Shown here: positions 20,954 to 54,556 of the stretch, in pieces
How the letters are laid out: each line of letters starts with the position of its first letter
Position numbering within the stretch: the stretch's first letter is position 1
Source: an uncultured virus (IMG/VR IMGVR_UViG_3300025470_000023)
Taxonomy: Duplodnaviria > Heunggongvirae > Uroviricota > Caudoviricetes
IMG/VR virus record: IMGVR_UViG_3300025470_000023
Reading direction: 5' to 3' (one strand)
DNA length: 64,000 nt
Made by a program: the position numbers and the translations under genes
Notes under the pieces: model-generated
Databases searched by the model: none
Told to the model about the DNA's origin: nothing
The model's input: only the letters and a program-made list of their open reading frames with translations

Positions 20954-21769
20954 ATGAAGAACGTAATTTACAAAATCCGAAACGTAGTCAACGACCACTA
21001 CTACGTAGGCAGCACAGTCGACTCTCGCAAACGCTTTTGGGCGCATAGAAAAGCTCTTCGCTTAGGGAACCATGACTGCGTGCATTTGCAACGTGCATGG
21101 AACAAATATGGCGAGGACTGTTTTAAATTCGAAGTGCTAGAGACGCATAGCTCTAAAGACGAGTTGTACCCAGCGGAACAAAAATGGCTGGACGAGCATT
21201 TCGGTAAAGACTACTGCTACAACGTAGCTGCCCACGCCGACTCCCCTATGAGGGATGCGAGCCCAGAGATCCGGGCTAAATTAGCTGAAAAAACCAAAGC
21301 ATGGCTTAAACGAGAGGGACACCCTCGGCAAGGCGTAGCACATACAGAAGAATCCCGCGCTCAGATGTCAGAGACGCGTAAAGGTAAAGCAGCAGGCGCA
21401 GACCACTACCGCTACGGTAAAACAGTTTCAGAGGAGACACGTAAAAAGATTGGCGATGCTCAACGTGGTAAACCTAAAGCGCCCGGGAGAACCATATCCG
21501 CTGAAGGCCGTGCCAAAATCCGTGCCGCAGCTGAGGCGGGGCACTACAGTCACTGGGAAGGTCGCACTCATTCGGAGGAGTCAAAGGAGAAGATGGGCCG
21601 CGCCGTCATAGCGACGGATCCTGCTGGTGTAGAGCATAGGTTTGCTACAATCACTCAGCTTCGAAAGGAGCTTGGGCTGACTCCACCCACGGTGGATAGG
21701 GCTTTAAAATCTGGCAACGCCCTGACAAAAGGCAAAGCCGAGGGGTGGAGTTTTAGATATACTGACTGA
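20954..21769 (+). mobile_element. free-standing GIY-YIG homing endonuclease with NUMOD3 repeats
   Basis: VIYKIRN...YYVGST...RFWAH...LQRAWNKYG; repeated HTEESRAQMS / SEETRKKIG / HSEESKEKM. Confidence 0.9.
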
Positions 21770-22451: not shown

Positions 22452-22685
22452 ATGGATGCGCAAAATATCATTAATATCACTGCAGCGGTCATCGGAGCAG
22501 TCATTGGTTGGTTTGTAAAAATCATGTGGGATTCTGTTAAAGAACTCCAGAAAGACGTGAAAGAAACCAACCAGTCTCTCCATGAGAACTACGTCCGTAA
22601 AGATGATTATCGAATCGACATGGCCGAAATAAAGGGTATGTTTAACCGGATCATGGACAAGTTGGACAACAAGGTGGACAAATGA
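22452..22685 (+). CDS. single-TM coiled-coil membrane protein
   Basis: MDAQNIINITAAVIGAVIGWFVK followed by a coiled coil. Confidence 0.65.
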   Translation: MDAQNIINITAAVIGAVIGWFVKIMWDSVKELQKDVKETNQSLHENYVRKDDYRIDMAEIKGMFNRIMDKLDNKVDK

Positions 22686-23023
22686 CACTGCCGTCCCGCG
22701 GTATTTCTCCAATTCAGCGTAAAGCTAGAGGAAATAAAATGGCTAAGAAATCAGGTATGCCTACTTTGGCAAAGAAAGAGTCTATGAAGGCTCGTGTAAC
22801 CAAGCGCGCTCCCGCACTGAACGCTATGTCTTTGGGTGCGGCTAATGCTCCTATGCCTCCGGCAGCAGGTCTCCGTACCGCTGGCCCTATGGGTATGAAG
22901 TCTGGCGGTTCTTGTGGCACCAAGAAGATGGCTTGCGGTGGCAAGGCGATGAAGGGCTACTATAAAGGTGGTTCTGTCGATGGCTGCATCTCTAAGGGCC
23001 ACACCAAAGGGAAGTTTGTCTGA
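22682..23023 (+). CDS. small basic virion protein
   Basis: MKSGG / MACGG / YYKGG repeats, DGCISKGHTKG end; alternative start at 22739. Confidence 0.65.
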   Translation: MTLPSRGISPIQRKARGNKMAKKSGMPTLAKKESMKARVTKRAPALNAMSLGAANAPMPPAAGLRTAGPMGMKSGGSCGTKKMACGGKAMKGYYKGGSVDGCISKGHTKGKFV

Positions 23024-24320: not shown

Positions 24321-24959
24321 ATGAGAGCAATAAATCCAGAAACGACCAGATATGCGTATGTGCACTGTCGTCCTGATGGGTCTATTTTTTATGTAGGCAA
24401 GGGTGCTATGCGCCGAGCAAAAAATCTTAGGGAACGGAATGAGTACCATAAGCGGGTCGTAGCTAAGCACGGTAAGGAAAACATTTTTATCGGAACCATA
24501 GAATGCTCATCTGATGCGATATCACTAGAGTTGGAACGGGGCATCATCAAGTGTCTCAAACGTTCTGGAGTTAAACTAACTAATTGCACGGATGGTGGCG
24601 AGAAGGGCACAGTTTTAACACCGGAGACATTAGAGAAGTTGTCCATAGCGGCAAAAAAACGCGGCGTATCAGCAGCCTGCCGAACCGCTACCGTAACCGC
24701 GAGAAAAGGAAAACCGCTACCAGAAGCGCACAGATTGAAAGTATCGCGGAGTATGCAAGGTAAAGTATTCTCTGAAGAGCATCGACGTAATATCAGCGCT
24801 TCCGCTAAGAAAAGAGGCATGTCTCCACAAATAACAGCCGCAGCCCACGCTAAGACCAGAGGCAGGGTGCAATCTGAAGAGGAGCGCGCAATGCGGAGCG
24901 CAGCGCTGTTAGAATCATGGCGCAGGCGTAAAGCGGAGGCAACAAATAATGGCGACTAG
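24321..24959 (+). mobile_element. GIY-YIG homing endonuclease with NUMOD3-like repeats
   Basis: YAYVHCRPDGSIFYVGKG...LELERGII...LTNCTDGGE; SEEHRRNIS repeats. Confidence 0.85.
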
Positions 24960-26047: not shown

Positions 26048-26218
26048 ATGGCCAAGCATGATGATGTCGCTGAAGACAAGAAACTGATCAAGCAGACTGT
26101 TAAAAAGTCCGCTCTGAAGGGCATGAAAAAGGGCGGTGTAACCTCCCTCGACATGAAGAAGTATGGGCGCAACCTCGCTCGTGCTATGAATCAGAAGGGG
26201 TCTAGCCGTGGCAAGTAA
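26048..26218 (+). CDS. small basic protein (56 aa)
   Basis: MAKHDDVAEDKKLIK...MKKGGVTSLDMKKYGRNLARAMNQ; GAGG RBS; below ORF-track cutoff. Confidence 0.65.
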   Translation: MAKHDDVAEDKKLIKQTVKKSALKGMKKGGVTSLDMKKYGRNLARAMNQKGSSRGK

Positions 26219-28156: not shown

Positions 28157-28675
28157 TTGAAGATGCGGAACGATCATATCATTGTTGAAAATGCCCAGCA
28201 ATTATGGGACTACGATCCAGAGACAGGCAGAATTTACTGGAAAGAGCCGAAGTGTAATGGTGCTATAAAGGCGGGACAGGAAGCGGGGTCTACAACGACA
28301 TCGGGTTATAGAGAGGTTAGAGTAGGCAGAAAGCCCGTTTTGGTCCACAGGGTAATCTGGTTTTTGTATTATGGTGAACTTCCTAGATGTCAGCTAGACC
28401 ACATAAACAGAGATCGGGCGGACAACAGAGTTTGCAATTTACGGATAGCGTATAACAACGCTAGCGATAACAACCAAAATAGGGCGGTAGGAAAAAACAA
28501 CACCTCTGGGTACAAAGGTGTTATATGGAACCCTAAGAACAGTAGATGGATAGTCCGACTTAAACATAAAGGGCGAAGCATGTATTTTGGGTCTTACCTC
28601 GATATCAAAGATGCCATAGCTGCTAGGAAAAGGGCAGAAGCAGAGCATTTTACTTTTATACATTCTCAGGAATAG
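28157..28675 (+). mobile_element. HNH-AP2 homing endonuclease
   Basis: YDPETG, HRVIW, LDHINRDRADNRVCNLR, NTSGYKGV...YFGSY AP2 domain. Confidence 0.9.
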
Positions 28676-40448: not shown

Positions 40449-41849
40449 ATGTACCACACCACATCTAAAGGCATCGCGGCTCTCGGGCGTAATGGGGATG
40501 ACACTCTTCTTCATGTAAAGAAAGATGAGCTCGCGGGTCTCGAAGCGCTATTAGGTCCTGTTACGACCAACCCCAAGACGGGGCTTCCTGAAGCCTTTAA
40601 CTGGACAGATATCTTGACCTCTTTAGGTTTAGGTATTGCGGGTGCTTTGACTGGCGGCGCGGCGGCTCCTGCATTTGGGGCTATTGGTAGCACTATTGTC
40701 GGCGCAGGTACAAGCGCTCTGGCTGGTGGAGCATTGAGCTCTGCACAGGGTAAAGGTTTTGGTCCCGGCGCTGTCGGAGGCGCGATTAGTGGGGGTATGG
40801 GAGGGTTTGGCGCTGCTGATATTCCGGGCGGACCAGTCGCTAGCGCAGCAGAAAAAACCGCAGGCGCTTCTATAGAACTAGACAATCCATCGGTATGGGA
40901 TCAGTACGGCTCTAATCTGGCACAGCAAGGCTCAGCCATGCTCACCAAGCCGGGTATGGAATACCTTATGCAGCCTGTAGGGTTAGGCACGATGCTAGGC
41001 GCTACGGCGCAGGGCACAATGGAGCAAGCCAGCACAGGCGCTACGCAGCTACGTAATCAAAAGCTACAGCAGGCAAAAGCAGATGCTGAACAGCGGCAGT
41101 ACTTCGCGAGTCTGGGCTTCCCCCTTCCTTCTGGGACCGCGGGCACTTCTACCGACCCTAACCAGCAGCGTGACTATTTTGGCAATCTAATCTACGGTAA
41201 GGCCGCGGGCGGGCCGATCGAAATGTCGCGTACGGTAGGTGGAGTGCCAATACACACCACTGTCCCTCCGAAGTATGTGTCGCAGTTTGAAAACTCTGAT
41301 GTGCAGGACAATCTCGACCCCGCTTTACAGAACCTACAGGGGATCGCACAGGGTGTGCAGCAGAAACTGAGCGGGCAGGGTTTCGCTACTGGCGGGTACA
41401 TGAACACAAACCCCTTTAGCCCTCAAGATTTTTACCCTCAGTCTCGCATCGCGAGCGCGCAGCCTTATGCTGCTGCAGGAAACACCGGAGTCATTAACAC
41501 TCTCGCGCACGGGGCGAGCTTCGCTGAAGGTGGCTCAACCTACGATAAAGGCGGTTTCCTCGACGGCCCCGGCGATGGAATGAGCGATGACATTCCTGCC
41601 AACATTGATGGGCAGGAAGAAGTACGTCTGGCAGATGGTGAGTTTGTTGTGCCTCCAGAACTTGTCAGCCTCATTGGTGGTGGCGATCCTGAAGAGGGTA
41701 AGCGACTCCTTGATCAGCTTCTCCCCATGGTGCGGCAGGCAGCGCACGGTAAGAAAGAGCAGATAAAGCAGGGTGCAGGTAAACTAGCCGCAGAAAAACT
41801 CTTGGTAAGAAAAGGACATGCAGGAAGTTCAGGAATCGCAGCAGGTTAG
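40449..41849 (+). CDS. internal virion / ejection protein
   Basis: GRNGDDTLLHV...TTNPKTGLPEAF, hydrophobic Gly-rich segment, GPGDGMSDDIPA...LADGEFVV. Confidence 0.7.
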   Translation: MYHTTSKGIAALGRNGDDTLLHVKKDELAGLEALLGPVTTNPKTGLPEAFNWTDILTSLGLGIAGALTGGAAAPAFGAIGSTIVGAGTSALAGGALSSAQGKGFGPGAVGGAISGGMGGFGAADIPGGPVASAAEKTAGASIELDNPSVWDQYGSNLAQQGSAMLTKPGMEYLMQPVGLGTMLGATAQGTMEQASTGATQLRNQKLQQAKADAEQRQYFASLGFPLPSGTAGTSTDPNQQRDYFGNLIYGKAAGGPIEMSRTVGGVPIHTTVPPKYVSQFENSDVQDNLDPALQNLQGIAQGVQQKLSGQGFATGGYMNTNPFSPQDFYPQSRIASAQPYAAAGNTGVINTLAHGASFAEGGSTYDKGGFLDGPGDGMSDDIPANIDGQEEVRLADGEFVVPPELVSLIGGGDPEEGKRLLDQLLPMVRQAAHGKKEQIKQGAGKLAAEKLLVRKGHAGSSGIAAG

Positions 41850-42258
41850 TATTGACGAGTTTCGTCATGCGATTGACGCCGCTATCGAACGAGGCGAGCT
41901 GGCTCCTGTTGATACTCCTCTTACCCATTATCATACTCCTGACCTGTACGCTCGTCGGATTGTGGTGCCTGCTGGATCTATTTTTACCACGATGGTTCAC
42001 AAGACGGATCATATTGCCGTGGCGCTACGGGGGGTTATAGCTTTCTATGACCAAGATCGCATAGAGCATATCGTGCGCGCGCCCGAAGTAATGGTGACTA
42101 AAGCAGGTACGCAACGAGTGGTCGCCGTCCTTGAAGAATGCGAATGGGTCACTGTGCATCACTGTGCAGAGCAGGACGATAAGAAGGTTAAGGACGCGCT
42201 GGGATTCGAGACTATGGCTGAGTACGAAGCCACTAAATTGCTGGGAGTAGTGACATGA
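41818..42258 (+). CDS. cupin-fold protein
   Basis: HYHTPDLYARRIVVPAG...HKTDH...GTQR...WVTVH. Confidence 0.65.
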   Translation: MQEVQESQQVSIDEFRHAIDAAIERGELAPVDTPLTHYHTPDLYARRIVVPAGSIFTTMVHKTDHIAVALRGVIAFYDQDRIEHIVRAPEVMVTKAGTQRVVAVLEECEWVTVHHCAEQDDKKVKDALGFETMAEYEATKLLGVVT

Positions 42259-42773
42259 CTTTGGTTGTTTCTATTGGAGTAGCTATTTTGCCTGAATCAG
42301 TTATGGCGGCAGTAGGAGGCACAGTCGCAGCGGGCACAGGAGTAGCGGGAACCGCAGCGGCAACCACAGCAGGTGCGCTAACGGCAGGTGCACTAGGCGC
42401 AGGTACAGTAGGCGCGGTAGGTTATGGGGCTAGTCAAATGATGAAAGGTCCTCCTAAGTCCACGCCAAATGTCCCTACGCTCGCTCCGGGGCTTTCTCCA
42501 GCCATGACAGCAAGCCAAGTCAATACGTCGGCTCCCGCAGCGCCCCTTAGCGGGCTCGCTTCCATCGGGCAACAAAAAGCACCGGGTATGGCCCACGGCG
42601 GGCAAGTACCACTAAAGAATGGCGCGTACATCATCCCGGCGGACGTAGTCAGCGCACTAGGCAACGGGTCATCTAAGGCGGGCGCGGAATTCCTCCGCAG
42701 GCTCATGGAAGAAGTGAAACACAATGCGGTAGGCCGACACGGGTTAGGAGCGGTGAAGCGTGACGCTGCTTAA
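42255..42773 (+). CDS. internal virion protein
   Basis: Hydrophobic N-terminus; MAHGG...YIIPADVVSALGNGSS resembles the 40449 C-terminal domain. Confidence 0.65.
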   Translation: MTLVVSIGVAILPESVMAAVGGTVAAGTGVAGTAAATTAGALTAGALGAGTVGAVGYGASQMMKGPPKSTPNVPTLAPGLSPAMTASQVNTSAPAAPLSGLASIGQQKAPGMAHGGQVPLKNGAYIIPADVVSALGNGSSKAGAEFLRRLMEEVKHNAVGRHGLGAVKRDAA

Positions 42774-43176
42774 TGTTCAGCAGGTTCCGCTGGAGTATGT
42801 AAACCAAGTCTGGCCGCAGGTTGAACGATTTATAGACGATGCCTTGCACTATGCGCATGGCGATTACACAGTAGATGATGCACGGGTCTACGCTACCCTT
42901 GGGCAATGGTCACTCATTGTCGGTGTAGATGATCAGAACTTAGTTCACGGGGCGCTTTTAGTGTCTTATTTTAATCGGCCTCATGCGCGTGTTGCATTTG
43001 TTGCGGCTATCGGTGGTCGACACATAGCGAGTAGAGAAAACTGGGCGCAGTTTGAGGCTATAATTAAAGCTAACGGGGCAACCCATCTGGAAGGCGCAGC
43101 AAGAGAATCCATAGTTCGTCTATGGTCGCGCTATGGAATGGAGCCGAAATACACAATCGTAGGCAAAGATCTGTAG
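42760..43176 (+). CDS. GNAT-fold protein (P22 gp14 / T7 gp13-like position)
   Basis: AFVAAIGG...GATHLEGAARES..RLWSRYG. Confidence 0.6.
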   Translation: MTLLNVQQVPLEYVNQVWPQVERFIDDALHYAHGDYTVDDARVYATLGQWSLIVGVDDQNLVHGALLVSYFNRPHARVAFVAAIGGRHIASRENWAQFEAIIKANGATHLEGAARESIVRLWSRYGMEPKYTIVGKDL

Positions 43177-43186
43177 AGGTGCCATT

Positions 43187-45124
43187 ATGGGCGGCGGCGT
43201 ACCAGCAAGTACTACTTCAACAACCACGGTCAATCAATCACCGTGGCAAAATCCCACGTACCAAGCGCTTATGCTAGGTACTCAAAACAATCCGGGTCCG
43301 GTCACCAATATCCTCCGCAGCAACGCGGGAATGATGAACGCATATAACAACCTGCTCGCTCAGGGTGTTACGCCTATGGATGTGGTGCGTTCCAACCAAT
43401 TTAACCCCACGGCAGGCGGCGCGGGTACGTCCTTTCAACCTACACAAAAAGCTGCTGAAGGCGGCATCATGGGGGTGCGTAAGTTCGCCTCTGGTAGCTC
43501 TACGGCACCTAAAGACATTTCTTCAGGGCAGGCTAATCATTTAGCTCAGCTTCAGAAACGGGTAGACGCAAATAAACCGCTCAGTGCTAGTGACCAGAAC
43601 GTCTATAACTACTTAACTCAAACCCGTCAGGCGTATACCGACTACCAGAACCAACAGCAAACGCAAACGGACAATACCGCTACGGCGCAGCAGGGGCTCC
43701 TCGATCAGTCTATGGGGCAAACCGCCTTCACGCGGGTAAACCCGCAAACCGGCGCACTTGAGTCAACCAACCCGCTGTTCAACCAAGCAGTAGGCGAAAT
43801 TCAACAGGCGCAGCAACTACCGTCTCAATTTGGGCAGGCGACGAATGCCTATAATCAGGCCCTATCTGGCCTACAGGGGATGACCAATTATACCCCGCAA
43901 CAGGTGCAAGCTATGCAGGAGCAGGCGGCGCAGTATCAAGCCTCCCTAATGAATGCCCCTGCAGATATCAGCGCGCAAAGTTATGATGCGGCGCAGGCGC
44001 AAGCCGCCCAGATGAATCAACCCCAAGATGTGCAGGCTGTGCGTACACGCGCGGCTCAAATGCAGGGACCTCAGTCTTGGAACGCTCCGGGCACTGTACA
44101 ACAGTACATGGACCCTTATATTCAAAGCGTCATTGCTTCGCAGCAAGGGTTAGCTAACCGGCAGTTTGCGCAACAGCAGAACCAGCTTCGCAGTCAGGCA
44201 ACCGGGCAGCACGCCTTTGGCGGCGCGAGGGAAACCCTTGCTGAACAGAACGCACAGTTAAACCAGAACATTGCCAATCAGAACCTCGCGGCACAAGGGC
44301 TCTCGAATGCCTACACCACAGGGCTCGGCCAGTTCAACACGGCGCAGGGTCAGGGACTTCAGGCAGGTCAGGCAAATCTCTCAGCGGCGATGCAGGCAAA
44401 CCTTGCGAATCAGCAGGCGGGTATGACCGCTCAGCAGCTCAATCAGGCCGCAGGGCTCACCACGGGGCAAGCTAATCTGTCGGCGGCGCAGCAGACCGCA
44501 CTGGCGAATCAAAACGCGCTCAATACTCAGCGGTCTCAGTACGTCACTCAAGCTCTGCAGGCAGCACAAACCAATTATGGTGGTCAGCTTACCGCGGCTC
44601 AACAGAACCAAGTGGCTCAGAATGCTGCAGCGCAGTTCAATGCTCAGTCGCAAAATCAGATCAATCTGGCAAACCAGCAGGCGTCTCTGCAAGCCGGATT
44701 GGCTAACCAAAGCGCAGGTCTGCAAGCTAACCAGCAAAATCTCGGTGCCTATGGGCAGATGCTAACAGGAGCTGGGGGTCTGGGTTCCCTAGGCGCTTCG
44801 CAGGCGTCCACTAACCTCGCCAACATCGGGGCTCTCGGTCAGGGTGCAAGTGCTTGGCAGAATCTTGGGCAGCAGTATCTCAACACGCAGACACAGAACG
44901 CACAGAACGCCATCAACTTCCCGAGCAGCCTCTATAGCGGTGCGCTGAATGCGATCAATGCTCAGCCTTCTACGGGTGGTACCAACACCGCGTTCGGTAC
45001 GTCTACTCCGGCATCTCCGTTCGGTAAAGCGCATGGCGGTGAGGTCGAAGCGCATAAGGAATGGGATAAGGCCAAGGGCGGTAAGACTGTGAAGAAAGGC
45101 ATTGCATCTAAAGGGTGGAACTAA
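43187..45124 (+). CDS. DNA ejection / pilot protein
   Basis: YMDPY, AFGGAR, long Q/A/N-rich ANQ repeats. Confidence 0.7.
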   Translation: MGGGVPASTTSTTTVNQSPWQNPTYQALMLGTQNNPGPVTNILRSNAGMMNAYNNLLAQGVTPMDVVRSNQFNPTAGGAGTSFQPTQKAAEGGIMGVRKFASGSSTAPKDISSGQANHLAQLQKRVDANKPLSASDQNVYNYLTQTRQAYTDYQNQQQTQTDNTATAQQGLLDQSMGQTAFTRVNPQTGALESTNPLFNQAVGEIQQAQQLPSQFGQATNAYNQALSGLQGMTNYTPQQVQAMQEQAAQYQASLMNAPADISAQSYDAAQAQAAQMNQPQDVQAVRTRAAQMQGPQSWNAPGTVQQYMDPYIQSVIASQQGLANRQFAQQQNQLRSQATGQHAFGGARETLAEQNAQLNQNIANQNLAAQGLSNAYTTGLGQFNTAQGQGLQAGQANLSAAMQANLANQQAGMTAQQLNQAAGLTTGQANLSAAQQTALANQNALNTQRSQYVTQALQAAQTNYGGQLTAAQQNQVAQNAAAQFNAQSQNQINLANQQASLQAGLANQSAGLQANQQNLGAYGQMLTGAGGLGSLGASQASTNLANIGALGQGASAWQNLGQQYLNTQTQNAQNAINFPSSLYSGALNAINAQPSTGGTNTAFGTSTPASPFGKAHGGEVEAHKEWDKAKGGKTVKKGIASKGWN

Positions 45125-46515
45125 TGACCGCAGCAATTACGGACGACTCTTACAACCAGCAGGTTACGTCAATCTTTGACTTCCTGAAGAGCGCCTCGCC
45201 GCAGCAGTTGGCTCAGGTATCACAGGCGGTTCAACAGAACCCGCAAAGCCCGGAAGCTACCGCTTTGGCTATGGCTACGAACTACCAGCAGCAGATGCGT
45301 TCAGGGCAGGCTCAGGCTCCGCAGCAAACGGTATATCAGAAACATATCGCGCAGCTTTTGCAGAGTATTCAGCCTCCCGCCCAGCCCGCCCCCATGCAGA
45401 GCGGCATCGCCGCTGCGGGACCCAATCAATACGCGCTACAAGCGGCGGCAGCGCAAGATCCTATGCGCAACGCAGGTATCGGTGCGGCTCCTGAGAATAC
45501 GCCTATGCAGCAGGCTGCGACGGGCGGTTTGGTTGCTCTTGCGCATGGTGGATCAGTACGTGGGTTTAGCGGGCTAGATGGTAGCTATGCGGTTCCTGAA
45601 TTGGGCTCATACGATGCGCCTGAAGAAGAGGAAGAAAGCGAAGCCGCTGACGAGCGTCAGCTTGCTGAAGACCAGTACGACGAAGATACAGGCGAGCCTG
45701 TAAACCAGCATGTACAGTATAAAGACGTACCCAAGACGCGCATTCCTCGACAGGATGGCCCTGATCTTCACACTCCGGCTCCGGGGAGCTCTGCGGCGCA
45801 AGCGCAGAAAAAATCAGCTACCGATGCCGTCAAGAAAGCATCTAATGAATTGCTGGATGTATATGGACCGTCTTATTCTATTTCTCCCGATCTCCTGAGC
45901 AAACTAGATAAGATGCAACAGGGGGCGACCAGAGATAAATGGATTGGTGCTCTGGCCTCGGGTATTGGCAATTTACTTAGTGCGCAAACTCCGTACATGA
46001 GCCAAGCTGTGGGCCAAGGGCTTATCGGCGGTCTCGCCGGATACCAGCAGGGTGCCAAGGAAGAAGGCGATATCGAAAAGCAGACACTACAACTTCAGAT
46101 GGCTGCAGAGAAGGAAGCGCACGCGGATAAACGGTCCGCAGTTAATTCAATCCTTGCACAGCAGGCAGCTACGCTTAAAGCGCAGCGTGAACGTGAGCTT
46201 GAAATGGATAAGCTCAAGGCTAAGGGCTACACCGATCTGCAGGTGGCTTCTATTCTCGCGGGACGCGGCGCTGCCGGTAATGTTGTCGATCCCAATGAAC
46301 GCAGTCAGCGCATCAAAGAAGCCGCCCAGCAGATCGCTAGTTCTTCTCAGGCATTGCAAGAAGCATGGAGCCCTGACCGTATTCGATTGGAAGCCGAAAG
46401 GCAGGTCGATGCAGAAATGGCCCGCGCACCTTCAGCGTTGAAGGGAGTTAATCCCGCACCGTATAATCCCCTGCAGGCTTACGGATTCATCGGAGGCCCA
46501 CTAGGCGGTCGTTAG
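45124..46515 (+). CDS. internal virion / ejection protein
   Basis: Q/A-rich, amphipathic GALASGIGNLL segment, coiled coil. Confidence 0.65.
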   Translation: MTAAITDDSYNQQVTSIFDFLKSASPQQLAQVSQAVQQNPQSPEATALAMATNYQQQMRSGQAQAPQQTVYQKHIAQLLQSIQPPAQPAPMQSGIAAAGPNQYALQAAAAQDPMRNAGIGAAPENTPMQQAATGGLVALAHGGSVRGFSGLDGSYAVPELGSYDAPEEEEESEAADERQLAEDQYDEDTGEPVNQHVQYKDVPKTRIPRQDGPDLHTPAPGSSAAQAQKKSATDAVKKASNELLDVYGPSYSISPDLLSKLDKMQQGATRDKWIGALASGIGNLLSAQTPYMSQAVGQGLIGGLAGYQQGAKEEGDIEKQTLQLQMAAEKEAHADKRSAVNSILAQQAATLKAQRERELEMDKLKAKGYTDLQVASILAGRGAAGNVVDPNERSQRIKEAAQQIASSSQALQEAWSPDRIRLEAERQVDAEMARAPSALKGVNPAPYNPLQAYGFIGGPLGGR

Positions 46516-46525
46516 AGGATAAAAT

Positions 46526-49500
46526 ATGGCTGAAGAATACGGATTGGCTAACCTTCTCGCTGGTCAATCAATACCCGCTGATGACTCTGGCTTAGGGCAA
46601 ATATATGGCGGGGGAGACAGCTACACTGCTCAACCTCAAGCGCCTTCTTCAGCTACCGCGATTCCTCCGGGGTATAGGCCCGTACCATTACCTAATGGTG
46701 GGTTTGTCTTTGCCTATAAGGACCATACCGACGAGCAAGCTATTGCAGCTTACCAAGCGGCGCAGGGGGCGCAGCATCCCCAGCATAAGCCGATCCCTCA
46801 TGGGCACGCGGCTGCACGCGAGCCGGTAGCGCCTGAATTCAAGCAAGCGCAGCGTGAGCCGCGCTACGAAGCGTTTGATCCTATCACTGAAGTGCTTAAC
46901 GCTGAGAACCAGCTTGATCGCGCTTCGATCGAGGAAATCCCCCGCGCCTATAAATATGCGCTGACTCCAGCGCAGGCGGCTCAGGTTAAACGCCAAGAGG
47001 AAAAAGCAGCACTCGCCGCGCAACCTCGTGATCCTGAAAAGCAGGGGTTCATTCCCGCTGTAGGAGCTGGCTTTGCTCGTGAGATCGGGAGTGTAGGACG
47101 CTTCGCTTCAGAAAGTGCTCAACCGTTTGCTCCGGGTGTAGCGCAGACCATCAAGGAAGTCACACAACCTGCGGAAGCTAAGGCCAAGGAACTTCATCAG
47201 CCTATCTCTGACATTGAGATTGCCGAAGCAAAACAGAAAGGATTCGTACCTTACGCTGGCGCTCAGCTTACGCGTGCCGGAGATATTCTAGGTGGGTTTG
47301 CTGGTGAGTGGGGTGTTCCCGGTATTGTCAGTAGGGCAGGTGCTCCGGGTAGGGCTATCAGTGGTGGGCTGACGTTTGCACAGCTTTATGGCGATCTGTC
47401 TCGTCGTGCCGAAGAATCCGGTGTGGAACTCTCATTGCCAGAGAAGTACGCAGGGGCCGCAATCAGCACCGCTATTTTTCAGTTGGCCCCCAACTTCGTA
47501 ACCAAGGGCTTGCCCCTCAATGTGCTGGCTCCGTCTGCTAAAGCCATTGTCGATATCTATGAAAAGGAAGGTGCAGAAGCTGCGCAGAAAGCTGTAGGGT
47601 CTTTGGCTGGCAATATCGTCAAGAGCTATGGCTCAGGTGTTGTAGGCGGAACTGCCGCTATGGCCGGTACGGAAGCGGTAACTCGTCACATGCTGGGTCA
47701 ACCGCAGATTACACCTGAAGAAACTCTAGAGATGGCTAAGGACGCTGCGATTATCAGTGCTCCTATGAGTATTCTCCACGGGCGCGCGGCAACGGCGGAA
47801 GCACAGAAAGGCTATAGAGAAGGCGCGGCGCGAGCATATAGAGAAGATCAGAGACTGCAGCAACAGGTTGACGCTATCAACCAAGAGAACGCGGAGCGTA
47901 CATGGCCCGAAATGCGTACGGAAGGGCAAAGAGCTGACCAAACGCAGGGTACTGAGCATATTGAGACTCCCGGCGTAGCCGAGCCTGCACCGCCGACTGG
48001 CGAGATCAACCTGCTTCAACCTGTTGACTGGCACCCTACGGGTGATGGGTTCCCTAATACGGTCGAGGGGTTGAAGGGTTTCATCGCGCACCATAAAGAC
48101 AAGCTACAGAATGAGGTGGCTCGCCGTAACCCAGAGGTTGCTGCACCCATTGAAGGTGCGCTTAAAGAAGCGAACAAAAGACTTACGGCGCTTCGCCGTA
48201 CCGCACAGAAAGGTGAGGCTCCGACTCCTCCGGGTATTCCTCCGTCAGCAGAGTTGTTGCCTTGGCCGGGCGAAGCGCCGCCGGAAGCCGTTACACCCGA
48301 AGCTCCAGTCGTTACACCCGAAGCTCCGCCTCCGGTTGAGGCTGTTACACCCGAAGCTCCCGCCGCACCTTGGCCTGTAGAAGCTCTCGGGCTGAAACCG
48401 AATGCCGCGCTGACTAAGCGCCTCGCCAAGCTGGATATGAATAACCCAGAGCACATCGAAGCTATTTCCGATGAGCTAAACAAGACACGCGTGCAGATCG
48501 AGCCTGAGAAGCTGGCTGCACTGTCAAATCATTTTGATGCTATTATAAAGCCTAGTAAAACAACAGAGCAGAAGGCTTATGGCGCGCAAGGCGAACAGAA
48601 CATCATTCCAAAAAGGCCACCAACTGTGGACCTCGGAACGCAAAGAAAAACTACAGAACTCTTTAGCCCAGAAGCGCAAAGAGGGATGGAGCTCCTTACC
48701 CAAAGGATACAAGATGTCGCCCGAAGTTATACAGAAGAGGGGCGAAACCCGGCGCAAGAATTGCTTAGGCAAACGATACCTACACAAAAGTTGCAACAAG
48801 ACATATTGGGTCATTTGGACACCCTCGGGGAAACGGTACGAGCATCGGGTGATTATGGAGCAGTTGCTAGGGAGATCATTACTGAAATCGGAGCACGTTC
48901 ACCACAAGGACGGGGACGGCTTGAACAACTCACCCGAAAACTTGGAGCTTCTGAGCAGCAGCGCCCACGCGAAAGAGCACCATCACTTACCTCTAGGGAA
49001 ATGGGCCAAGAACCACGAGGTGTGCTTGAAATGCCACAGCAAGGAGCGAAAGCACCTAGCGAAAGGCTTATGCACGAGGTGTTACCAACAAAACAAGCAG
49101 GAGAAATAGATGCCCTCAACAAGCAAATCTCAAGCACGCCTGATGGCGGCAGCGGCGCACAACCCGTCTTTCGCGAAGAAGGTGGGGATCAAGCAGTCAG
49201 TGGCCAAGGAGTGGAACCAAGCGGACAAGGGGAGCAAGCTGCTGAAGTCGAAGCCCCGAAAGAAGTAGAGGCCATCCAGCAAGAAGCGCGTTCGCTCCAA
49301 CCGGGAGATATTATCGCCAACGATATGGGTGATAGAGTTGAGATCGTGAAATTGGGTGGTACGCTTAAAGACGGCACACAGTTGTATGAATGGCGTGACC
49401 CTGATGACCCCAATTTTGGTCCTACGAAGATGGCTACTTCTTCTCCTGAAGGTAGTGAAGGCGTGCTCTCTATACATACACTGCTGTCCCCATACCAATA

Positions 49501-52500
49501 TCTTACGCCTGAAGGCGAACGTAAGAGCGCTCCCGGCGCTACTATAACTAGAGCACAAGAAGCACCTAAAACGGAAGAAGAGCTCACAGCGGTAGAACCG
49601 CAAAACCCTCGCGAAGCGTGGGAAGCCATGCGTAGTGAAGGCGATCCTGACCATAAGGCCCTACCGCGCGAAGCGCAGATTGCATGGAAAAGAGCCTTTG
49701 ATGACGGCGCTGCAGACAAGGCTTTCTTCGATCAGCTAAAGACCGCGATCACTCCAGAAGCAGATAGGCAGGCTGGCGAGACAGAAGAAGCCGTTGCCCC
49801 TTCTAAAAAAGACTACGATGGTGATGAGTTCCTCTATAGCCGCGGTGAGAAACCAAAAGAAGCAACTAGCCGGGAGATGATCCATGAGACGATCAAGAAC
49901 ATCACTGGTGATAAGCCTACCGCTTGGAGCGTAAAAATCCATGACACGGTAGAAGATGCACAGAATCATTTGAATGAGGCTGTTTATGAAAAGCTGGATA
50001 GGGATTACCCGGCTATTATGCGGGCTATTGACCATTTTGAACGCACGGGAGAGCTAGACCCTAATGATCCTTACTTGCCTCGTGGTGGTGTTGTATCTCG
50101 TGAGCGGCATATAGATATCCTGCGCGGAATAGCCAGTGATATACGCAAGAATGCTGAAGCTAAAGGGCTTACGGGGTTAAAACTTGAGCCCGATGCTAGA
50201 GGTTTCGTGCTGGGGAACAAAGCGCATTTCGTTGTAGAAAACATCCCTAAAGGGCGGGAACTTGGGGTGATGCTGCATGAGGTGGGTGATCACCTCGGTA
50301 TGGAAAAACTGTTGGGTACAGAACAGCGCTCTAGACTCGCAGCTAAAGTTGCCGATTGGGCCAAGACGCATAAAGGTCTTGAAGGTGACGTTGCTCGCGC
50401 TGCTATTGAACGTTCTCGTGGTGATGAATCAGAACACATCGCTTACTTTGTAGAAGAAGCGGTTAACCACGGCGTTGACCCCACTGCATGGAAGCCGAAC
50501 TCTGGGTTTAGTGTCTGGTTCCGTCAGCTCTTGGCTGCATTCAAAGCTGGCTTACGCAAACTCGGTATCAAGAATGTTGATCGTCTGTCTGCTCAAGATA
50601 TCGTAGATATGGCCTATGGTGCGGCGCACCTTGAGTTGCGCAGTCGTTGGCATGGTGCCCCTAAAGACTTCAGAAAATTCCAGCTCAAGTATCGCGGCAC
50701 TGGGGAAGGCGGCTTAGAGCCGGGTGATAGAAACGCTGAACACTTTACCGACATGATTGGTTGGGGGCATTACATGTCCGGTCGGCGTGGTATCGCTGAA
50801 GAATATCGTGATCGCCTGTCTGCGCAAGCTAAGCGTGGTACTGGAGCATTAGACCTTAAAGACTATAAAAAAGATTTTGATGTAGGCACTGACAAAGCGA
50901 CCGCTTTTAGCGATGCCTATGAGATTTTACATGAAACTCGGGGGGATTTTATTAAGGCTAGGCGGCGCATAGGTTTGCACGCGCAAGAATTCACTGATGC
51001 CCTAAATGGAGTGTGGCCCACACCTAAAAATCTTCCAGATCTTATAAAACAGGCAGAGAAAGAACGTGACCTCGCATTACAGTTTATAGACACGTTTGAA
51101 AAGCACGGAGCTGAGTATATTCCGGGCGAGCAACCAGAACCCACACTCTATAAACTCGGCATCAACGCCTTCGACCATGAGCTTATCGACTGGGAAAAAC
51201 CCCTGTCTGAGCAAAGCCCTGACGTACAGCGCGTAGCTAATCGCGTAAAGAAGAAGCTGGAAAAAGAAGGAGTGCTTGACGACGTTGTCGATACGCTTAA
51301 TTCAAATTGGGAAGACATCTCAGGTAGAGACTTCTATCGGTATGTGATGCGTAAAGCACGGGATACCGATGCTATTCCAGAGTTGTATGACTTGAGCGCC
51401 GTTAACGCAGAGAAGGCGGCATCTGAGTATTTGGACTCTCAAGGGATCAAAGGCATCAAGTACCCGACCCAAGGAGGGCAGGGTCCGGGCCACAACTACG
51501 TCATCTTTAGCGACAAGAATGTTCATATCGCGGGTAAGAATGTGCCGCGCACTGAAGCTGAAGGTATTCGCTACTCGCGTGCTCCTGAAGGGGAAGAAGA
51601 ACGTCCCCCGCTAACCAAGATTGATCGCAGCTCTACCCTAAAGACGATCGCTAAGACTTTGAAGCGCGCGGCGTTGGCGGTTAGTGATCCGAGTGCTATG
51701 TCTGAGGAGTATGCCAAGTTCCGGCGGCGGGTGATCGCTGAGTCTGCAGGTCTGACCAAAGCTCTCGAGAATGAGCCTACCTACGATCCTGATACCGGCA
51801 TTCGCGTGGACTATCTGCGGAACCAATACGACAGTGCCTATCAGTTATCTCTGGAAGGTCTGTTCAATGGTGTGCCTGTGCTTGAGCCTAAGACGGGTGT
51901 TGTGCGTATTCAGCCGACGACTCGTACCAATCTCGATCGCATCATGGCAGATGCAGCTAAGCTACCGCTCAAAGTCTCCTATGACGGGCAGAAAAAGGAA
52001 CCGCTCGAAGTCATGGCGGATATCTTCCGTATCAAGATGGGTGAACAGGAACTCAAAGAATACGAAGAAGCCAAGGTTAAGCTAAGAGCAATCGAACAGT
52101 TGCCAGAAGCTACGCGCAATCAGACCGACACCAAGGCGGAAATGGATAGGCTTAAAGAGCTTATCACTAATCAAGAAAGAGGCATTGGTCGTGAGCGTAA
52201 TGTCACCCGCGAAGACATTCGCTGGGCTAATGACGAGATTCAACACGTACCGGGAGTGCAGGATATTCTGGATCGTTGGGGTGAGACTAACCAAGAGCTG
52301 CTACGTTTTGCGCGTGACACCAACTGGATCACTCCTGAGAAGTATGAAGAATGGTCGGAGCGGCCCTCATACATCCCCATGTATAAGCCGATGGAAGATA
52401 TCCTAGCAGAGCGCGACGAGACACCTGCATTCCCCGGTGGTGGTCCTAAGACTGTCGGTAAGCTGTTCGGTAAGACAGGTGCGGCTAGTGCATTCCCTGT

Positions 52501-54463
52501 GAATGTTTTTGAGAGCTTGTCTCAGCACTATACGTCGATGATCACCAACTCCATGATGAACAACGTCAAGTATAGAGCCTTCCAGCAGCTTGAACGGGTA
52601 GGGTTGGCAGAGCGCGTTGCACCCACATACAAGGGTAAGGATGCTGTAAAGGCGCGCGCCGCTGGTAAAGACTTCCTCTATAAAGTGAAGGACGAAGAGG
52701 CATTCCGTTCGCTGACGATGGCGAATATGTACAGCAACCCGTTCCTTGATCTAGTGGCGATCCCGGCTAATGTGGTTCGCCGTACGGCGCTGTTCCTGAA
52801 CCCTGCTTACTACTACAGGACGATGATCCATGATCCTCTCGCCGCTACGCTGACTACGACAGCTAAAGGCGCGATCGGCCCTGTGACTCCTGCAGATGCC
52901 CTGTATCAGATAGGCAAGCGGGCTGCGGGTTTTGATAAGTCGGCTAAGGATCTGCAGTACTACGGAATCAGCGGGCTCGCTAACATGGACGCCAACATGC
53001 ACCGTTTCGCGCGGGCTCTTGGCGACTCACCGAAATATAACAAGTGGCTCCAGTACATTGATAAGGTCCACTCTTCTTTCGATGACGCTACGCGTACCAT
53101 CGTCTATGAGGCGGCTAAGAAGGAAGCGGCTAAGGATGGCATCACTGATCCGCAGGTGATTAACGATATCGCCGCTGTTAAGGCTCGGGACTTTGCTGAC
53201 TTTGCGGCCAAGGGCTCTAGTCAGCTCGTGCGTATAGCAGGTAAGCAGACTCCGTTCCTTCACGCGCATTTTGTGGGTCTGGATAAAATGCTTCGCTCTG
53301 CTACAGGGCACGGTAAGGACTCCAAGGAAGGTAAGGCTCAGCGTGATCGGTTTGTCGCTGGCGCTACGCTTGCGGCGAGTGCTGTAGTGGCTATTACTCT
53401 CGCTAACATACGTGACAAGCGATACCGGGACCTGCCTATCGGTGAGTGGTCCAAGAACATCATTGCTGGATTTGATGATGAAGGGCGCGCAATCAAGATC
53501 CCTGTACCACAGGAAATTGGCTTCTGGTTCAAGTTTGTTCCTGAGCTCATGACCCGTATGCTGATGGGCGTTAGTGATAAGCCTGAAGCGAGCAAGGCAT
53601 TTCACGGTATGGCGATAGATACATTGCTTCCTCCGGGTCTGGCTGACCCGATCAGTATCGCGGTGCGTGGTTGGTTGCAGATGCAGACGAATACCGAGTT
53701 GCATAGTGGCCTCCCGATTGAAAGCCCGCAGGAACAGTTGCTCCTGCCAGAAGACAGGGACAAGAGAGCGACTATCTTTAGTAAGGCTCTGCGTGATCAA
53801 CTCAAGAAGTATGGGTTGTCGGAAGACTTCTCACCAGATAAGTTCGACAGCTTTATGCGCTCCTATCTCACTACAATCTGGGATAACTCTGCTCTGGCCG
53901 CGACGATGATCCATGATGCCTATACAGGCAAACGCAGTCTGTTTGAACTGCCTTTCAACAAAGACTTCACGGAAGTGTACCCCGGCGCTAAGGCATTCTT
54001 CAGCAATCCGAGAAACATCTCAGCTACGCCGCGCTTCTACGATATGGCCAAGCCGCTCTATGAAACGCTCAAGTCAGTCAATGCGGCGGCACACGGAGAA
54101 ATGGATGACTCCGTAGAACGGTTTGATGAGTTACGCAATGATCCTGTTGTGATGCAACGCTACCGTATGGCGAAAGTGGCGGCTAAGTATCGGTCTAAGA
54201 TTTCAGCTTTGGAAAAGGCGATCGAACAGCTTGATAACAGGCAGGATCTCACTGAGGCGCAAAGGCGCAAACTTTACTGGGACCGCATCAAGGATCGCAA
54301 TGAACTTGCTAGAACTGCTGTAAATGAGCTCTCCAAGGGCCTAATGCAGGACAAGAAGTTCAAGGACGATGTAGAGAAATCTTGGAAGCTCTCTGTGTCT
54401 CCTGAAGACCTCGAACGCGAGATAGGTAAGTTCAAGGAAAATACAGGTGATACGGAAGAATAA
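46526..54463 (+). CDS. giant polyvalent ejection protein (metallopeptidase-like, ART-like and LPD38-like domains)
   Basis: 2645 aa; LHEVGDH; WHG...GTGEG...GWGHY...GIKGIKY...NYVIF; IKIPVPQEIG C-terminal region. Confidence 0.8.
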   Translation: MAEEYGLANLLAGQSIPADDSGLGQIYGGGDSYTAQPQAPSSATAIPPGYRPVPLPNGGFVFAYKDHTDEQAIAAYQAAQGAQHPQHKPIPHGHAAAREPVAPEFKQAQREPRYEAFDPITEVLNAENQLDRASIEEIPRAYKYALTPAQAAQVKRQEEKAALAAQPRDPEKQGFIPAVGAGFAREIGSVGRFASESAQPFAPGVAQTIKEVTQPAEAKAKELHQPISDIEIAEAKQKGFVPYAGAQLTRAGDILGGFAGEWGVPGIVSRAGAPGRAISGGLTFAQLYGDLSRRAEESGVELSLPEKYAGAAISTAIFQLAPNFVTKGLPLNVLAPSAKAIVDIYEKEGAEAAQKAVGSLAGNIVKSYGSGVVGGTAAMAGTEAVTRHMLGQPQITPEETLEMAKDAAIISAPMSILHGRAATAEAQKGYREGAARAYREDQRLQQQVDAINQENAERTWPEMRTEGQRADQTQGTEHIETPGVAEPAPPTGEINLLQPVDWHPTGDGFPNTVEGLKGFIAHHKDKLQNEVARRNPEVAAPIEGALKEANKRLTALRRTAQKGEAPTPPGIPPSAELLPWPGEAPPEAVTPEAPVVTPEAPPPVEAVTPEAPAAPWPVEALGLKPNAALTKRLAKLDMNNPEHIEAISDELNKTRVQIEPEKLAALSNHFDAIIKPSKTTEQKAYGAQGEQNIIPKRPPTVDLGTQRKTTELFSPEAQRGMELLTQRIQDVARSYTEEGRNPAQELLRQTIPTQKLQQDILGHLDTLGETVRASGDYGAVAREIITEIGARSPQGRGRLEQLTRKLGASEQQRPRERAPSLTSREMGQEPRGVLEMPQQGAKAPSERLMHEVLPTKQAGEIDALNKQISSTPDGGSGAQPVFREEGGDQAVSGQGVEPSGQGEQAAEVEAPKEVEAIQQEARSLQPGDIIANDMGDRVEIVKLGGTLKDGTQLYEWRDPDDPNFGPTKMATSSPEGSEGVLSIHTLLSPYQYLTPEGERKSAPGATITRAQEAPKTEEELTAVEPQNPREAWEAMRSEGDPDHKALPREAQIAWKRAFDDGAADKAFFDQLKTAITPEADRQAGETEEAVAPSKKDYDGDEFLYSRGEKPKEATSREMIHETIKNITGDKPTAWSVKIHDTVEDAQNHLNEAVYEKLDRDYPAIMRAIDHFERTGELDPNDPYLPRGGVVSRERHIDILRGIASDIRKNAEAKGLTGLKLEPDARGFVLGNKAHFVVENIPKGRELGVMLHEVGDHLGMEKLLGTEQRSRLAAKVADWAKTHKGLEGDVARAAIERSRGDESEHIAYFVEEAVNHGVDPTAWKPNSGFSVWFRQLLAAFKAGLRKLGIKNVDRLSAQDIVDMAYGAAHLELRSRWHGAPKDFRKFQLKYRGTGEGGLEPGDRNAEHFTDMIGWGHYMSGRRGIAEEYRDRLSAQAKRGTGALDLKDYKKDFDVGTDKATAFSDAYEILHETRGDFIKARRRIGLHAQEFTDALNGVWPTPKNLPDLIKQAEKERDLALQFIDTFEKHGAEYIPGEQPEPTLYKLGINAFDHELIDWEKPLSEQSPDVQRVANRVKKKLEKEGVLDDVVDTLNSNWEDISGRDFYRYVMRKARDTDAIPELYDLSAVNAEKAASEYLDSQGIKGIKYPTQGGQGPGHNYVIFSDKNVHIAGKNVPRTEAEGIRYSRAPEGEEERPPLTKIDRSSTLKTIAKTLKRAALAVSDPSAMSEEYAKFRRRVIAESAGLTKALENEPTYDPDTGIRVDYLRNQYDSAYQLSLEGLFNGVPVLEPKTGVVRIQPTTRTNLDRIMADAAKLPLKVSYDGQKKEPLEVMADIFRIKMGEQELKEYEEAKVKLRAIEQLPEATRNQTDTKAEMDRLKELITNQERGIGRERNVTREDIRWANDEIQHVPGVQDILDRWGETNQELLRFARDTNWITPEKYEEWSERPSYIPMYKPMEDILAERDETPAFPGGGPKTVGKLFGKTGAASAFPVNVFESLSQHYTSMITNSMMNNVKYRAFQQLERVGLAERVAPTYKGKDAVKARAAGKDFLYKVKDEEAFRSLTMANMYSNPFLDLVAIPANVVRRTALFLNPAYYYRTMIHDPLAATLTTTAKGAIGPVTPADALYQIGKRAAGFDKSAKDLQYYGISGLANMDANMHRFARALGDSPKYNKWLQYIDKVHSSFDDATRTIVYEAAKKEAAKDGITDPQVINDIAAVKARDFADFAAKGSSQLVRIAGKQTPFLHAHFVGLDKMLRSATGHGKDSKEGKAQRDRFVAGATLAASAVVAITLANIRDKRYRDLPIGEWSKNIIAGFDDEGRAIKIPVPQEIGFWFKFVPELMTRMLMGVSDKPEASKAFHGMAIDTLLPPGLADPISIAVRGWLQMQTNTELHSGLPIESPQEQLLLPEDRDKRATIFSKALRDQLKKYGLSEDFSPDKFDSFMRSYLTTIWDNSALAATMIHDAYTGKRSLFELPFNKDFTEVYPGAKAFFSNPRNISATPRFYDMAKPLYETLKSVNAAAHGEMDDSVERFDELRNDPVVMQRYRMAKVAAKYRSKISALEKAIEQLDNRQDLTEAQRRKLYWDRIKDRNELARTAVNELSKGLMQDKKFKDDVEKSWKLSVSPEDLEREIGKFKENTGDTEE
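48579..49109 (+). mobile_element. HNH homing endonuclease nested in the +1 frame of the giant gene
   Basis: YEHRVIMEQLLGRSL...HVHHKDGDGLNNSPENLELL plus C-terminal CxxC...GLCxxC. Confidence 0.85.
49110..49268 (+). CDS. 52-aa basic protein nested in the +1 frame of the giant gene
   Basis: MPSTSKSQARLMAAAAHNPSFAKKVGIKQSVAKEWNQADKGSKLLKSKPRKK; AGGAG RBS; ATG directly after the HNH stop. Confidence 0.7.
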   Translation: MPSTSKSQARLMAAAAHNPSFAKKVGIKQSVAKEWNQADKGSKLLKSKPRKK

Positions 54464-54500
54464 AAAGAACCCCGCGGGAGTGAGGCGCGGGGTATAAAAA
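54462..54500. terminator. probable terminator between convergent late and replication units
   Basis: ACCCCGCG...CGCGGGGT hairpin flanked by A tracts. Confidence 0.55.
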
Positions 54501-54556
54501 GGGGGGATTGAACAATGATTCGACCGCGCGTAGTTTATGAGGCGGTCTATAGGCTG

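What the first reader, a model, noticed from the sequence alone, without database searches (positions are those of the whole stretch)
49110..49268. Second nested gene: a 52-aa basic protein directly after the nested HNH, same +1 frame
Seen: TAG-ATG junction, AGGAG RBS and the product MPSTSKSQARLMAAAAHNPSFAKKVGIKQSVAKEWNQADKG...; it is below the ORF-track cutoff. From memory (unverified), this resembles a family of small phage late proteins (MPSxSKKQ..FMAA.AHNP.FAKKVGI) usually free-standing near capsid genes, and I find no such copy in the head cluster here. Inference: about 690 bp of the giant gene is a dual-coding two-gene mini-operon, and the HNH may have homed next to this small gene.
Basis: partly seen in the sequence, partly recalled or inferred. 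Interest (0 to 1): 0.8.

Follow-up and report, generated by a model that had tools for sequence, protein, structure and literature searches.

The report
Conserved small gene inside giant gene
A freshwater phage keeps its only copy of a very common 52-amino-acid protein gene one base out of step inside a giant virion-protein gene, and in this strain a selfish DNA-cutting gene has moved in just ahead of it, so ordinary annotation misses two genes.

Summary
Confirmed. 49110-49268 is a real gene (PHROG 16759) in the +1 frame of a 2645-codon LPD38 virion gene. It is nested at the same spot in 28 loci (19 distinct sequences). All 19 have a Shine-Dalgarno and a start codon. Changes are mostly silent in its frame and almost never in the giant's. 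It is the only copy in 5 of 5 records searched. More distant capsid relatives fuse the same module to a post-capsid protein, whose counterpart here lacks it, so the gene probably moved. The HNH is a late arrival: 2 of 28 loci, a net 546-nt insert that replaced the small gene's ribosome site and first ~8 codons. The two-gene unit is therefore strain-level; the nesting is older. Function is inferred (about 0.55): a basic three-helix head-internal module needing a free N-terminus. Two proteins that start with it are in published virion mass spectrometry. Translation is not shown. Hidden HNHs are in print (ShiLan); I found no paper on nested genes in polyvalent giants. This scan has noted the same kind of arrangement before on other DNA.

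The parts
46526..54463 (+). Host gene: 2645-aa large polyvalent virion (probable ejection) protein with LPD38; read through both nested genes
   Evidence: PF18857 E 3.2e-15; frame open in all 27 nested loci
49110..49268 (+). Nested 52-aa basic protein gene, +1 frame, PHROG 16759 family; three helices; pI 10.9
49099..49103 (+). Shine-Dalgarno AGGAG of the small gene, inside the last HNH codons; the -30..+20 region is nearly unstructured (-1.7 kcal/mol)
48579..49109 (+). Nested 176-aa HNH endonuclease with C-terminal Cys/His finger, +1 frame; catalytic and Cys residues intact; weak ribosome site
   Evidence: (PF13392 E 2.7e-11)
48544..49140 (+). Inserted cassette (597 nt replacing 51 nt; net 546 nt = 182 codons): HNH plus a new ribosome site and first ~8-10 codons of the small gene
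22682..23023 (+). Post-capsid gene of the family that carries the module at its N-terminus in relatives; here it has the same C-terminal motif but no module (probable former home)

Best explanation
The 52-codon ORF is a real, separately initiated gene. Ribosomes start at its own Shine-Dalgarno inside the late mRNA of the giant virion gene, while other ribosomes read the same DNA one base back as an acidic, loosely constrained linker of the giant protein. History (inferred): (1) in an ancestor of this freshwater phage clade, the module left its usual place at the front of a post-capsid protein and became fixed in a linker of the giant gene; (2) recently, in one lineage, an HNH cassette entered in front of it, adding 182 codons without breaking the giant frame and bringing a new ribosome site and new first codons. 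That keeps the small gene working and may remove the nuclease's own target. Function (inferred, about 0.55): a basic three-helix module that acts with a free N-terminus as a head-internal protein, binding packaged DNA or the core, in the manner of T4 internal proteins. Shown here: sequence anatomy, selection pattern, insertion limits, distribution. Not shown: translation, virion location of this copy, nuclease activity. The stated confidence is for the whole account; that the gene is real I put at about 0.96.
For: Selection: in 19 distinct nested sequences, pairwise codon differences are 2294 silent / 1451 replacing in the small frame and 80 / 3664 in the giant frame (pairs are not independent). 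Against the HNH-less relative L155, differences are 0/0/26 by giant codon position in the giant-only flank and 1/0/8 by small-gene position inside the gene. Initiation: SD run of 4 or more in 19 of 19, against 12.8% of 2119 other +1 ATG/GTG; 16 ATG and 3 GTG starts. Read-through: the -1 frame is open in 27 of 28 pattern hits but in 1 of 75 non-nested homologues. Over the HNH, 0 of 40 stop-risk sites end in T against 13 of 80 other sites (Fisher p 0.0045), and 0 of 30 HNH homologues have an open -1 frame. Only copy in 5 of 5 records, 3 rated complete. Relocation: the module is fused in the post-capsid cluster of 4 relatives (capsid identity 78-82%) and absent there in 3 nested-clade genomes. 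Insert limits from two HNH-less alleles. Virion link: CBB_322 (30 peptides, 43.57% coverage) and phAPEC6 gp161c (6 peptides, 28.9%) begin with the module. 16 of 17 internal copies follow a [LIVM]-x-E site, background 2.6%.
Against: No transcript, ribosome or proteome data for this phage. The mass spectrometry concerns longer fusion proteins, and I did not see whether peptides cover the module. The free-standing 201phi2-1 gp383 carries no virion note although its neighbour gp382 does. The module is 53-77% identical across phage groups with very different heads, which fits a host target as well as a head role. No solved fold matches (best Z 3.2). The 28-locus set was chosen with a motif typical of the nested clade, so 27 of 28 is not the nested share of the family. 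The tree does not resolve one origin. The window and L150 are identical over 48536-49247, but they share other 1-kb identical tracts, so recent homing is not proven. How an HNH with about 12 expected -1 stops became read-through is unexplained.
Confidence: 0.68

Rival explanations
1. The gene is real and nested as described, but its product binds a conserved host factor (ribosome, RNA polymerase, protease) in the infected cell or after ejection, rather than serving as a head or DNA-packing protein.
For: Very high identity across podophage-like, Rak2-like and phiKZ-like phages; invariant N-terminal residues; free-standing 201phi2-1 gp383 is not annotated as a virion protein; giants of this clade carry polyvalent domains such as ART-PolyVal.
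Against: Head-cluster position in capsid relatives; fusion to MS-detected virion proteins; internal copies sit behind protease-type sites. A packaged and ejected effector would fit both readings.
Confidence: 0.3
2. The +1 frame is reached by a ribosomal frameshift from the giant frame, giving a truncated giant protein that ends in the module, not a separate small protein.
For: The module does occur inside longer proteins (17 of 150 representatives).
Against: SD plus start codon at the module's first residue in 19 of 19 nested sequences. The HNH cassette supplied a new SD and ATG, and an in-frame TAG directly precedes the start in the window.
Confidence: 0.04
3. The HNH cassette is a self-splicing intron or intein, so the mature giant lacks the 182 codons.
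For: Homing endonucleases commonly sit in introns or inteins (PMC2988022, passages).
Against: The ORF fills nearly the whole insert, the insert replaces 51 nt rather than adding cleanly, the giant frame is purged of stops, and the giant has no intein-domain hit in Pfam.
Confidence: 0.05
4. The ORF is a decayed relic or a chance frame, and conservation reflects the giant protein or a DNA or RNA signal.
For: Short ORF; +1 frames of such linkers often give spurious ORFs (11 other SD-led +1 ORFs or internal starts of 45 aa or more listed).
Against: The silent-change pattern follows the small frame; 92% mean identity in the small frame against 59% in the giant frame, among giants only 22-28% identical in their C-terminal part.
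Confidence: 0.02

Closest known systems
PHROG 16759 (unknown function) and the N-termini of PHROG 22033 / 25121 virion structural proteins (CBB_322, 121Q gp51, phAPEC6 gp161c; 201phi2-1 gp383)
   Same: Same sequence family (E 9.9e-23, 5.8e-16, 3.7e-15); 2964 clusters at E up to 0.001.
   Different: Those are ordinary free-standing or fused genes; here the gene lies wholly inside another gene. No function is assigned to the module.
ShiLan domain and Pacc40 gp60 hidden HNH insertions in actinophage methylases (PMC11855218; read parts 1, 3 and 4 of 6)
   Same: Out-of-frame HNH with zinc finger, no stop in the host frame, no intron or intein detected, patchy among relatives.
   Different: The host here is a giant virion gene, probably essential (inference). 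The insert lies in a linker, replaces 51 nt, and rebuilds the start of a third, already nested gene. ShiLan inserts between two codons of conserved residues.
Embedded spanin genes Rz/Rz1 of lambdoid phages (recalled, not from a call)
   Same: A whole gene in the +1 frame of another, with separated forms in other phages.
   Different: Not a lipoprotein (no cysteine); no evidence that the two products form a complex; the outer frame here behaves as a passive linker.
T4 internal proteins and gp21-processed core proteins (PMC5694885, passages)
   Same: Small basic head-internal proteins; cleavage after Glu frees a new N-terminus, as the [LIVM]-x-E sites before internal copies suggest.
   Different: No sequence or fold match found; this copy has no propeptide. 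A functional analogy only.
Large polyvalent proteins with LPD38 (PMC5512222, passages; phi24B gp47, bioRxiv 10.64898/2026.04.10.717836, passages)
   Same: LPD38 is confined to phage-type polyvalent proteins; gp47 is detected in virions and proposed as an ejection protein.
   Different: The term search of PMC5512222 gave no passage on genes nested in other frames.

Membership tests
PHROG 16759 | Profile match over most of the model | tested here: met
   E 9.9e-23, positions 1-45 of 58
DUF3008 (PF11450) | Pfam profile match | tested here: not met
   0 of 27 family members hit it at E up to 10; only an Atlas feature lead at 0.93, 37% of that cluster
Embedded (nested) same-strand gene | Complete ORF inside another ORF in a different frame | tested here: met
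Embedded (nested) same-strand gene | Own initiation signal kept among relatives | tested here: met
   19 of 19
Embedded (nested) same-strand gene | Selection on the inner frame and an open outer frame | tested here: met
Embedded (nested) same-strand gene | Both proteins shown to be made | not testable with these tools
   no ribosome or proteome data
Rz1-type embedded spanin | Lipoprotein signal with a lipobox cysteine | tested here: not met
   the 52-aa sequence has no cysteine
ShiLan-type hidden HNH insertion (the upstream ORF) | HNH with zinc finger in another frame; host frame free of stops | tested here: met
ShiLan-type hidden HNH insertion (the upstream ORF) | Present in some relatives and absent in others | tested here: met
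   2 of 28 nested loci; insert-free alleles
ShiLan-type hidden HNH insertion (the upstream ORF) | Clean insertion between two codons of conserved host residues | tested here: not met
   597 nt replace 51 nt in a variable linker
ShiLan-type hidden HNH insertion (the upstream ORF) | Spread by homing between divergent phages | tested here: inconclusive
   the two carriers are 97-98% identical overall and identical over the insert; one event suffices
Group I/II intron | Conserved intron RNA core | tested here: inconclusive
   no Rfam match at E up to 1 in 47500-50500; splicing not testable
T4 internal proteins | N-terminal capsid-targeting propeptide cut after Glu | tested here: not met
   this copy starts directly at the module; such sites occur only before internal copies in other phages
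T4 internal proteins | Packaged inside the head | not testable with these tools
   indirect only: fused homologues in virion MS

The most novel reading that the evidence does not exclude
Linkers of giant ejection-protein genes work as landing sites for whole genes. A conserved head module moved out of the capsid cluster into the +1 frame, and a splice-less homing endonuclease now uses that nested gene's 5' end as its target. It spreads by replacing the gene's ribosome site and first codons while leaving three reading products intact: a homing system aimed at a hidden gene inside an essential gene.
Probability: 0.4. Interest if true: 0.8.

Novelty: new variant of a known kind. Interest (0 to 1): 0.62.

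Why it matters
It shows that a pre-existing, widely conserved gene can move into another gene's alternative frame and stay there across giants that are only about 25% identical. This differs from the usual picture of overlap by de novo overprinting. It exposes a blind spot, since gene callers report only the giant. It gives exact insert limits and paired HNH-plus and HNH-minus alleles for testing how an endonuclease spreads without splicing. It also defines an unnamed module of about 3000 clusters, shared by phiKZ-like, Rak2-like and freshwater phages, that can be studied in cultured phages.

Tried and rejected
No sigma-70 site passed at the HNH or the small gene (4 found against 5.8 expected in 46000-55000); an A/T-rich stretch at about 48540 is not claimed as a promoter. 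No Rfam match. No RNA holder listed, so nothing is concluded on expression. Solved structures: no sequence hit better than E 0.79, no fold at Z 5 or more; BFVD gave only the family itself. DUF3008 lead not confirmed. An unbiased sample of related giants failed: one search was unusable, one search gave 4 loci (3 contigs already held; L130 lacks the region) and only the own genome, so the share of related giants with the nested gene is unknown. Three cultured LPD38-like giants lack the module in the fetched stretches. The genome-contig hit L164 has no module and was dropped as chance; L093 is a free-standing copy and was dropped from the nested set. Searches for the HNH donor gave no context: its giant-frame reading occurs only in P0001 and P0002 among proteins of 1454-4629 aa; the nearest protein is 66% identical and no locus for it was found; 1 of 79 small-gene loci has an HNH-like gene nearby, on the other strand. 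The small-protein tree is unresolved (3 changes against 13.7 shuffled); the capsid tree was not displayed because the script failed at that step, and G003 was not evaluated there. A homodimer prediction was never run because the queue was full, so self-association is untested. Literature searches listed no paper on this family or on nested genes in polyvalent giants (listings only; most subscription journals are not in the library). No supplements were read; peptide tables there could show whether the module itself is in virions.

Full report
Observation. The window is a tailed-phage genome stretch (terminase, portal and capsid hits); the sequencing runs that hold it are mostly freshwater metagenomes. 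ORF 46526-54463 encodes 2645 aa with an LPD38 domain. In its +1 frame lie a 176-aa HNH ORF (48579-49109) and, with no gap, the 52-aa ORF (49110-49268), preceded by AGGAG at 6 nt. The peptide has pI 10.9; the giant-frame reading of the same DNA has pI 4.1.

The small ORF belongs to a large family. It matches PHROG 16759 (E 9.9e-23) and the first 46 positions of two 'virion structural protein' PHROGs. A profile of 27 members finds 2964 clusters at E up to 0.001, and 155 cultured-phage records match, mostly phiKZ-like and Rak2-like phages. AlphaFold gives three helices (mean pLDDT 76.9); no solved fold stands out.

Nesting is a clade trait. Of the best 80 IMG/VR hits, one is this genome, four are nested in giant ORFs and 75 are free-standing or fused. 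A giant-frame search gave 13 loci, 12 nested. A DNA pattern for the clade's motif gave 28 loci, 27 nested; this set is biased towards the clade by design. With L092, 28 nested loci give 19 distinct cores. Pairwise codon differences are 2294 silent / 1451 replacing in the small frame and 80 / 3664 in the giant frame; the minimum changes per small-codon position are 35, 26 and 63. The clearest single test is against the close relative L155: in 59 giant-only codons all 26 differences fall at the giant's third position, while in small-gene codons 10-52 eight of nine fall at the small gene's third position. All 19 have an SD run of 4 or more, against 12.8% of 2119 other +1 starts. Their start regions tend to be less folded than the rest of the gene (median rank 0.09 in 16). 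The giant frame is open only where the gene is nested: 1 of 75 non-nested homologues has an open -1 frame. So the small frame is under protein selection and the giant frame is kept open as a linker.

The gene probably moved there. The nested copy is the only one in 5 of 5 records searched, three rated complete. Among the 75 non-nested loci, 9 have a window-like capsid gene 1.7-4.3 kb upstream. In four examined in full (capsid identity 78-82%), the module is the N-terminus of a post-capsid protein; a fifth was cut short by the contig end. The window has a protein of that family at 22682-23023 with the same C-terminal motif (E 7e-8 pairwise) but no module, and so do two other nested-clade genomes; four nested-clade capsids are 87-93% identical to the window's. 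The direction of the move rests on the wide spread of the non-nested forms; the tree alone does not fix it.

The HNH came later. Only this genome and L150 carry it. Giants P0003, P0005 and P0006 share the flanks but lack it. Against L155 the window has a net 546 extra nt, and similarity resumes at about codon 8-10 of the small gene. A contig of run X15 independently joins 48543 to 49141, skipping 597 nt with 51 other letters between. The cassette therefore replaced the old SD, the start (GTG in L155) and the first codons with its own. The HNH is intact against four relatives. Its -1 frame has no stop where about 12-13 are expected by codon resampling (P 1e-7 to 7e-7). The more cautious within-gene test gives p 0.0045, and 0 of 30 homologues are open. 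A second X15 contig holds a diverged HNH, with 9 of the 14 listed differences at HNH third positions (my count from the table shown). Free-standing homing endonucleases cut away from their own gene and are often weakly translated or coupled to neighbours (PMC2988022, passages). That fits the weak HNH ribosome site and the TAG-ATG junction, but homing here is inference.

Function. Among the best 150 representatives, 133 have the module at the start and 17 internally; 16 of those 17 directly follow [LIVM]-x-E (these 17 are related, so this is not 16 independent events). Prohead proteases of T4, phiKZ and SPN3US cut after Glu (PMC5694885, passages); the I/L-x-E form for T4 is recalled. This suggests that the module is used with a free N-terminus inside heads. 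CBB_322 and phAPEC6 gp161c begin with the module (CBB numbering matched by gene number and neighbours) and are in virion MS tables (PMC5259590; PMC7247149; passages). The LPD38 giant of phi24B is proposed to be an ejection protein (bioRxiv 10.64898/2026.04.10.717836, passages). I therefore favour a head-internal, DNA- or core-binding role, made from the same late mRNA as the ejection protein (about 0.55). A host-binding effector role (about 0.3) is the main rival, given its conservation across unrelated heads and the lack of a virion note for 201phi2-1 gp383.

Relation to known systems. It is a member of PHROG 16759 and, by sequence evidence, a nested gene. It is not an Rz1-type spanin, not DUF3008 by Pfam, and not a T4 internal protein by sequence. 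The HNH works like the ShiLan element (PMC11855218, parts 1, 3 and 4 of 6 read) but fails its clean-insertion feature. Searches listed no paper on this family or on nested genes in polyvalent giants, and a term search of PMC5512222 showed none. Earlier notes of this scan report small basic genes, and once an endonuclease beside one, nested in giants of other genomes; they are unchecked AI notes, and gave me the ShiLan lead.

Verdict. Real and well supported as a nested gene; a new variant of a known kind. The added value here is the reconstructed order of events and the exact start-replacing insertion. Interest 0.62.

Noticed in passing
L165:2765 and 6866 (Aeromonas phiARM81mr), L166:6563 (Achromobacter CF418P1), L167:7700 (Synechococcus MinM2): Cultured phages with related giants hold other SD-led +1 ORFs of 54-69 aa that the records do not annotate. 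They are untested, but could be checked by proteomics.
   Followed up: no
window 20954-21769 and 24321-24959, 28157-28675: A GIY-YIG homing endonuclease directly follows the capsid gene; two further ORFs in the head-tail region look endonuclease-like by eye.
   Followed up: no
window 40449-46515, 22682-23023, 26048-26218, 14340-17216: A short [MYFLA][AKR]xGG motif recurs in several structural-region proteins, and occurs twice or more in 63 of 88 longer module-bearing proteins (shuffled mean 1.7). It may be a processing or packaging signal.
   Followed up: partly
window 49210-49226 and relatives: 14 of 15 distinct nested peptides have Trp at position 35 where 47 of 50 non-nested have Phe; Phe-Asn codons can create TAA in the giant frame. 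Partly circular, because the pattern search selected on Trp.
   Followed up: partly
L150 versus window 49265-51590: Two near-identical phages differ by a swapped module of the giant gene that begins right after the small gene's end (2645 vs 2254 aa).
   Followed up: no
L096:4001-4141 (Rhizobium phage RHph_TM3_14A): The small gene is free-standing about 200 nt downstream of a giant gene, in a genome of similar layout.
   Followed up: partly
L136, L153, L156, 350-600 nt upstream of the small gene: SD-led leucine-rich +1 ORFs of 45-54 aa; possibly only the shifted reading of Pro/Ala-rich linkers.
   Followed up: no
window 14340-17216: The portal protein carries a C-terminal DUF6973 domain.
   Followed up: no
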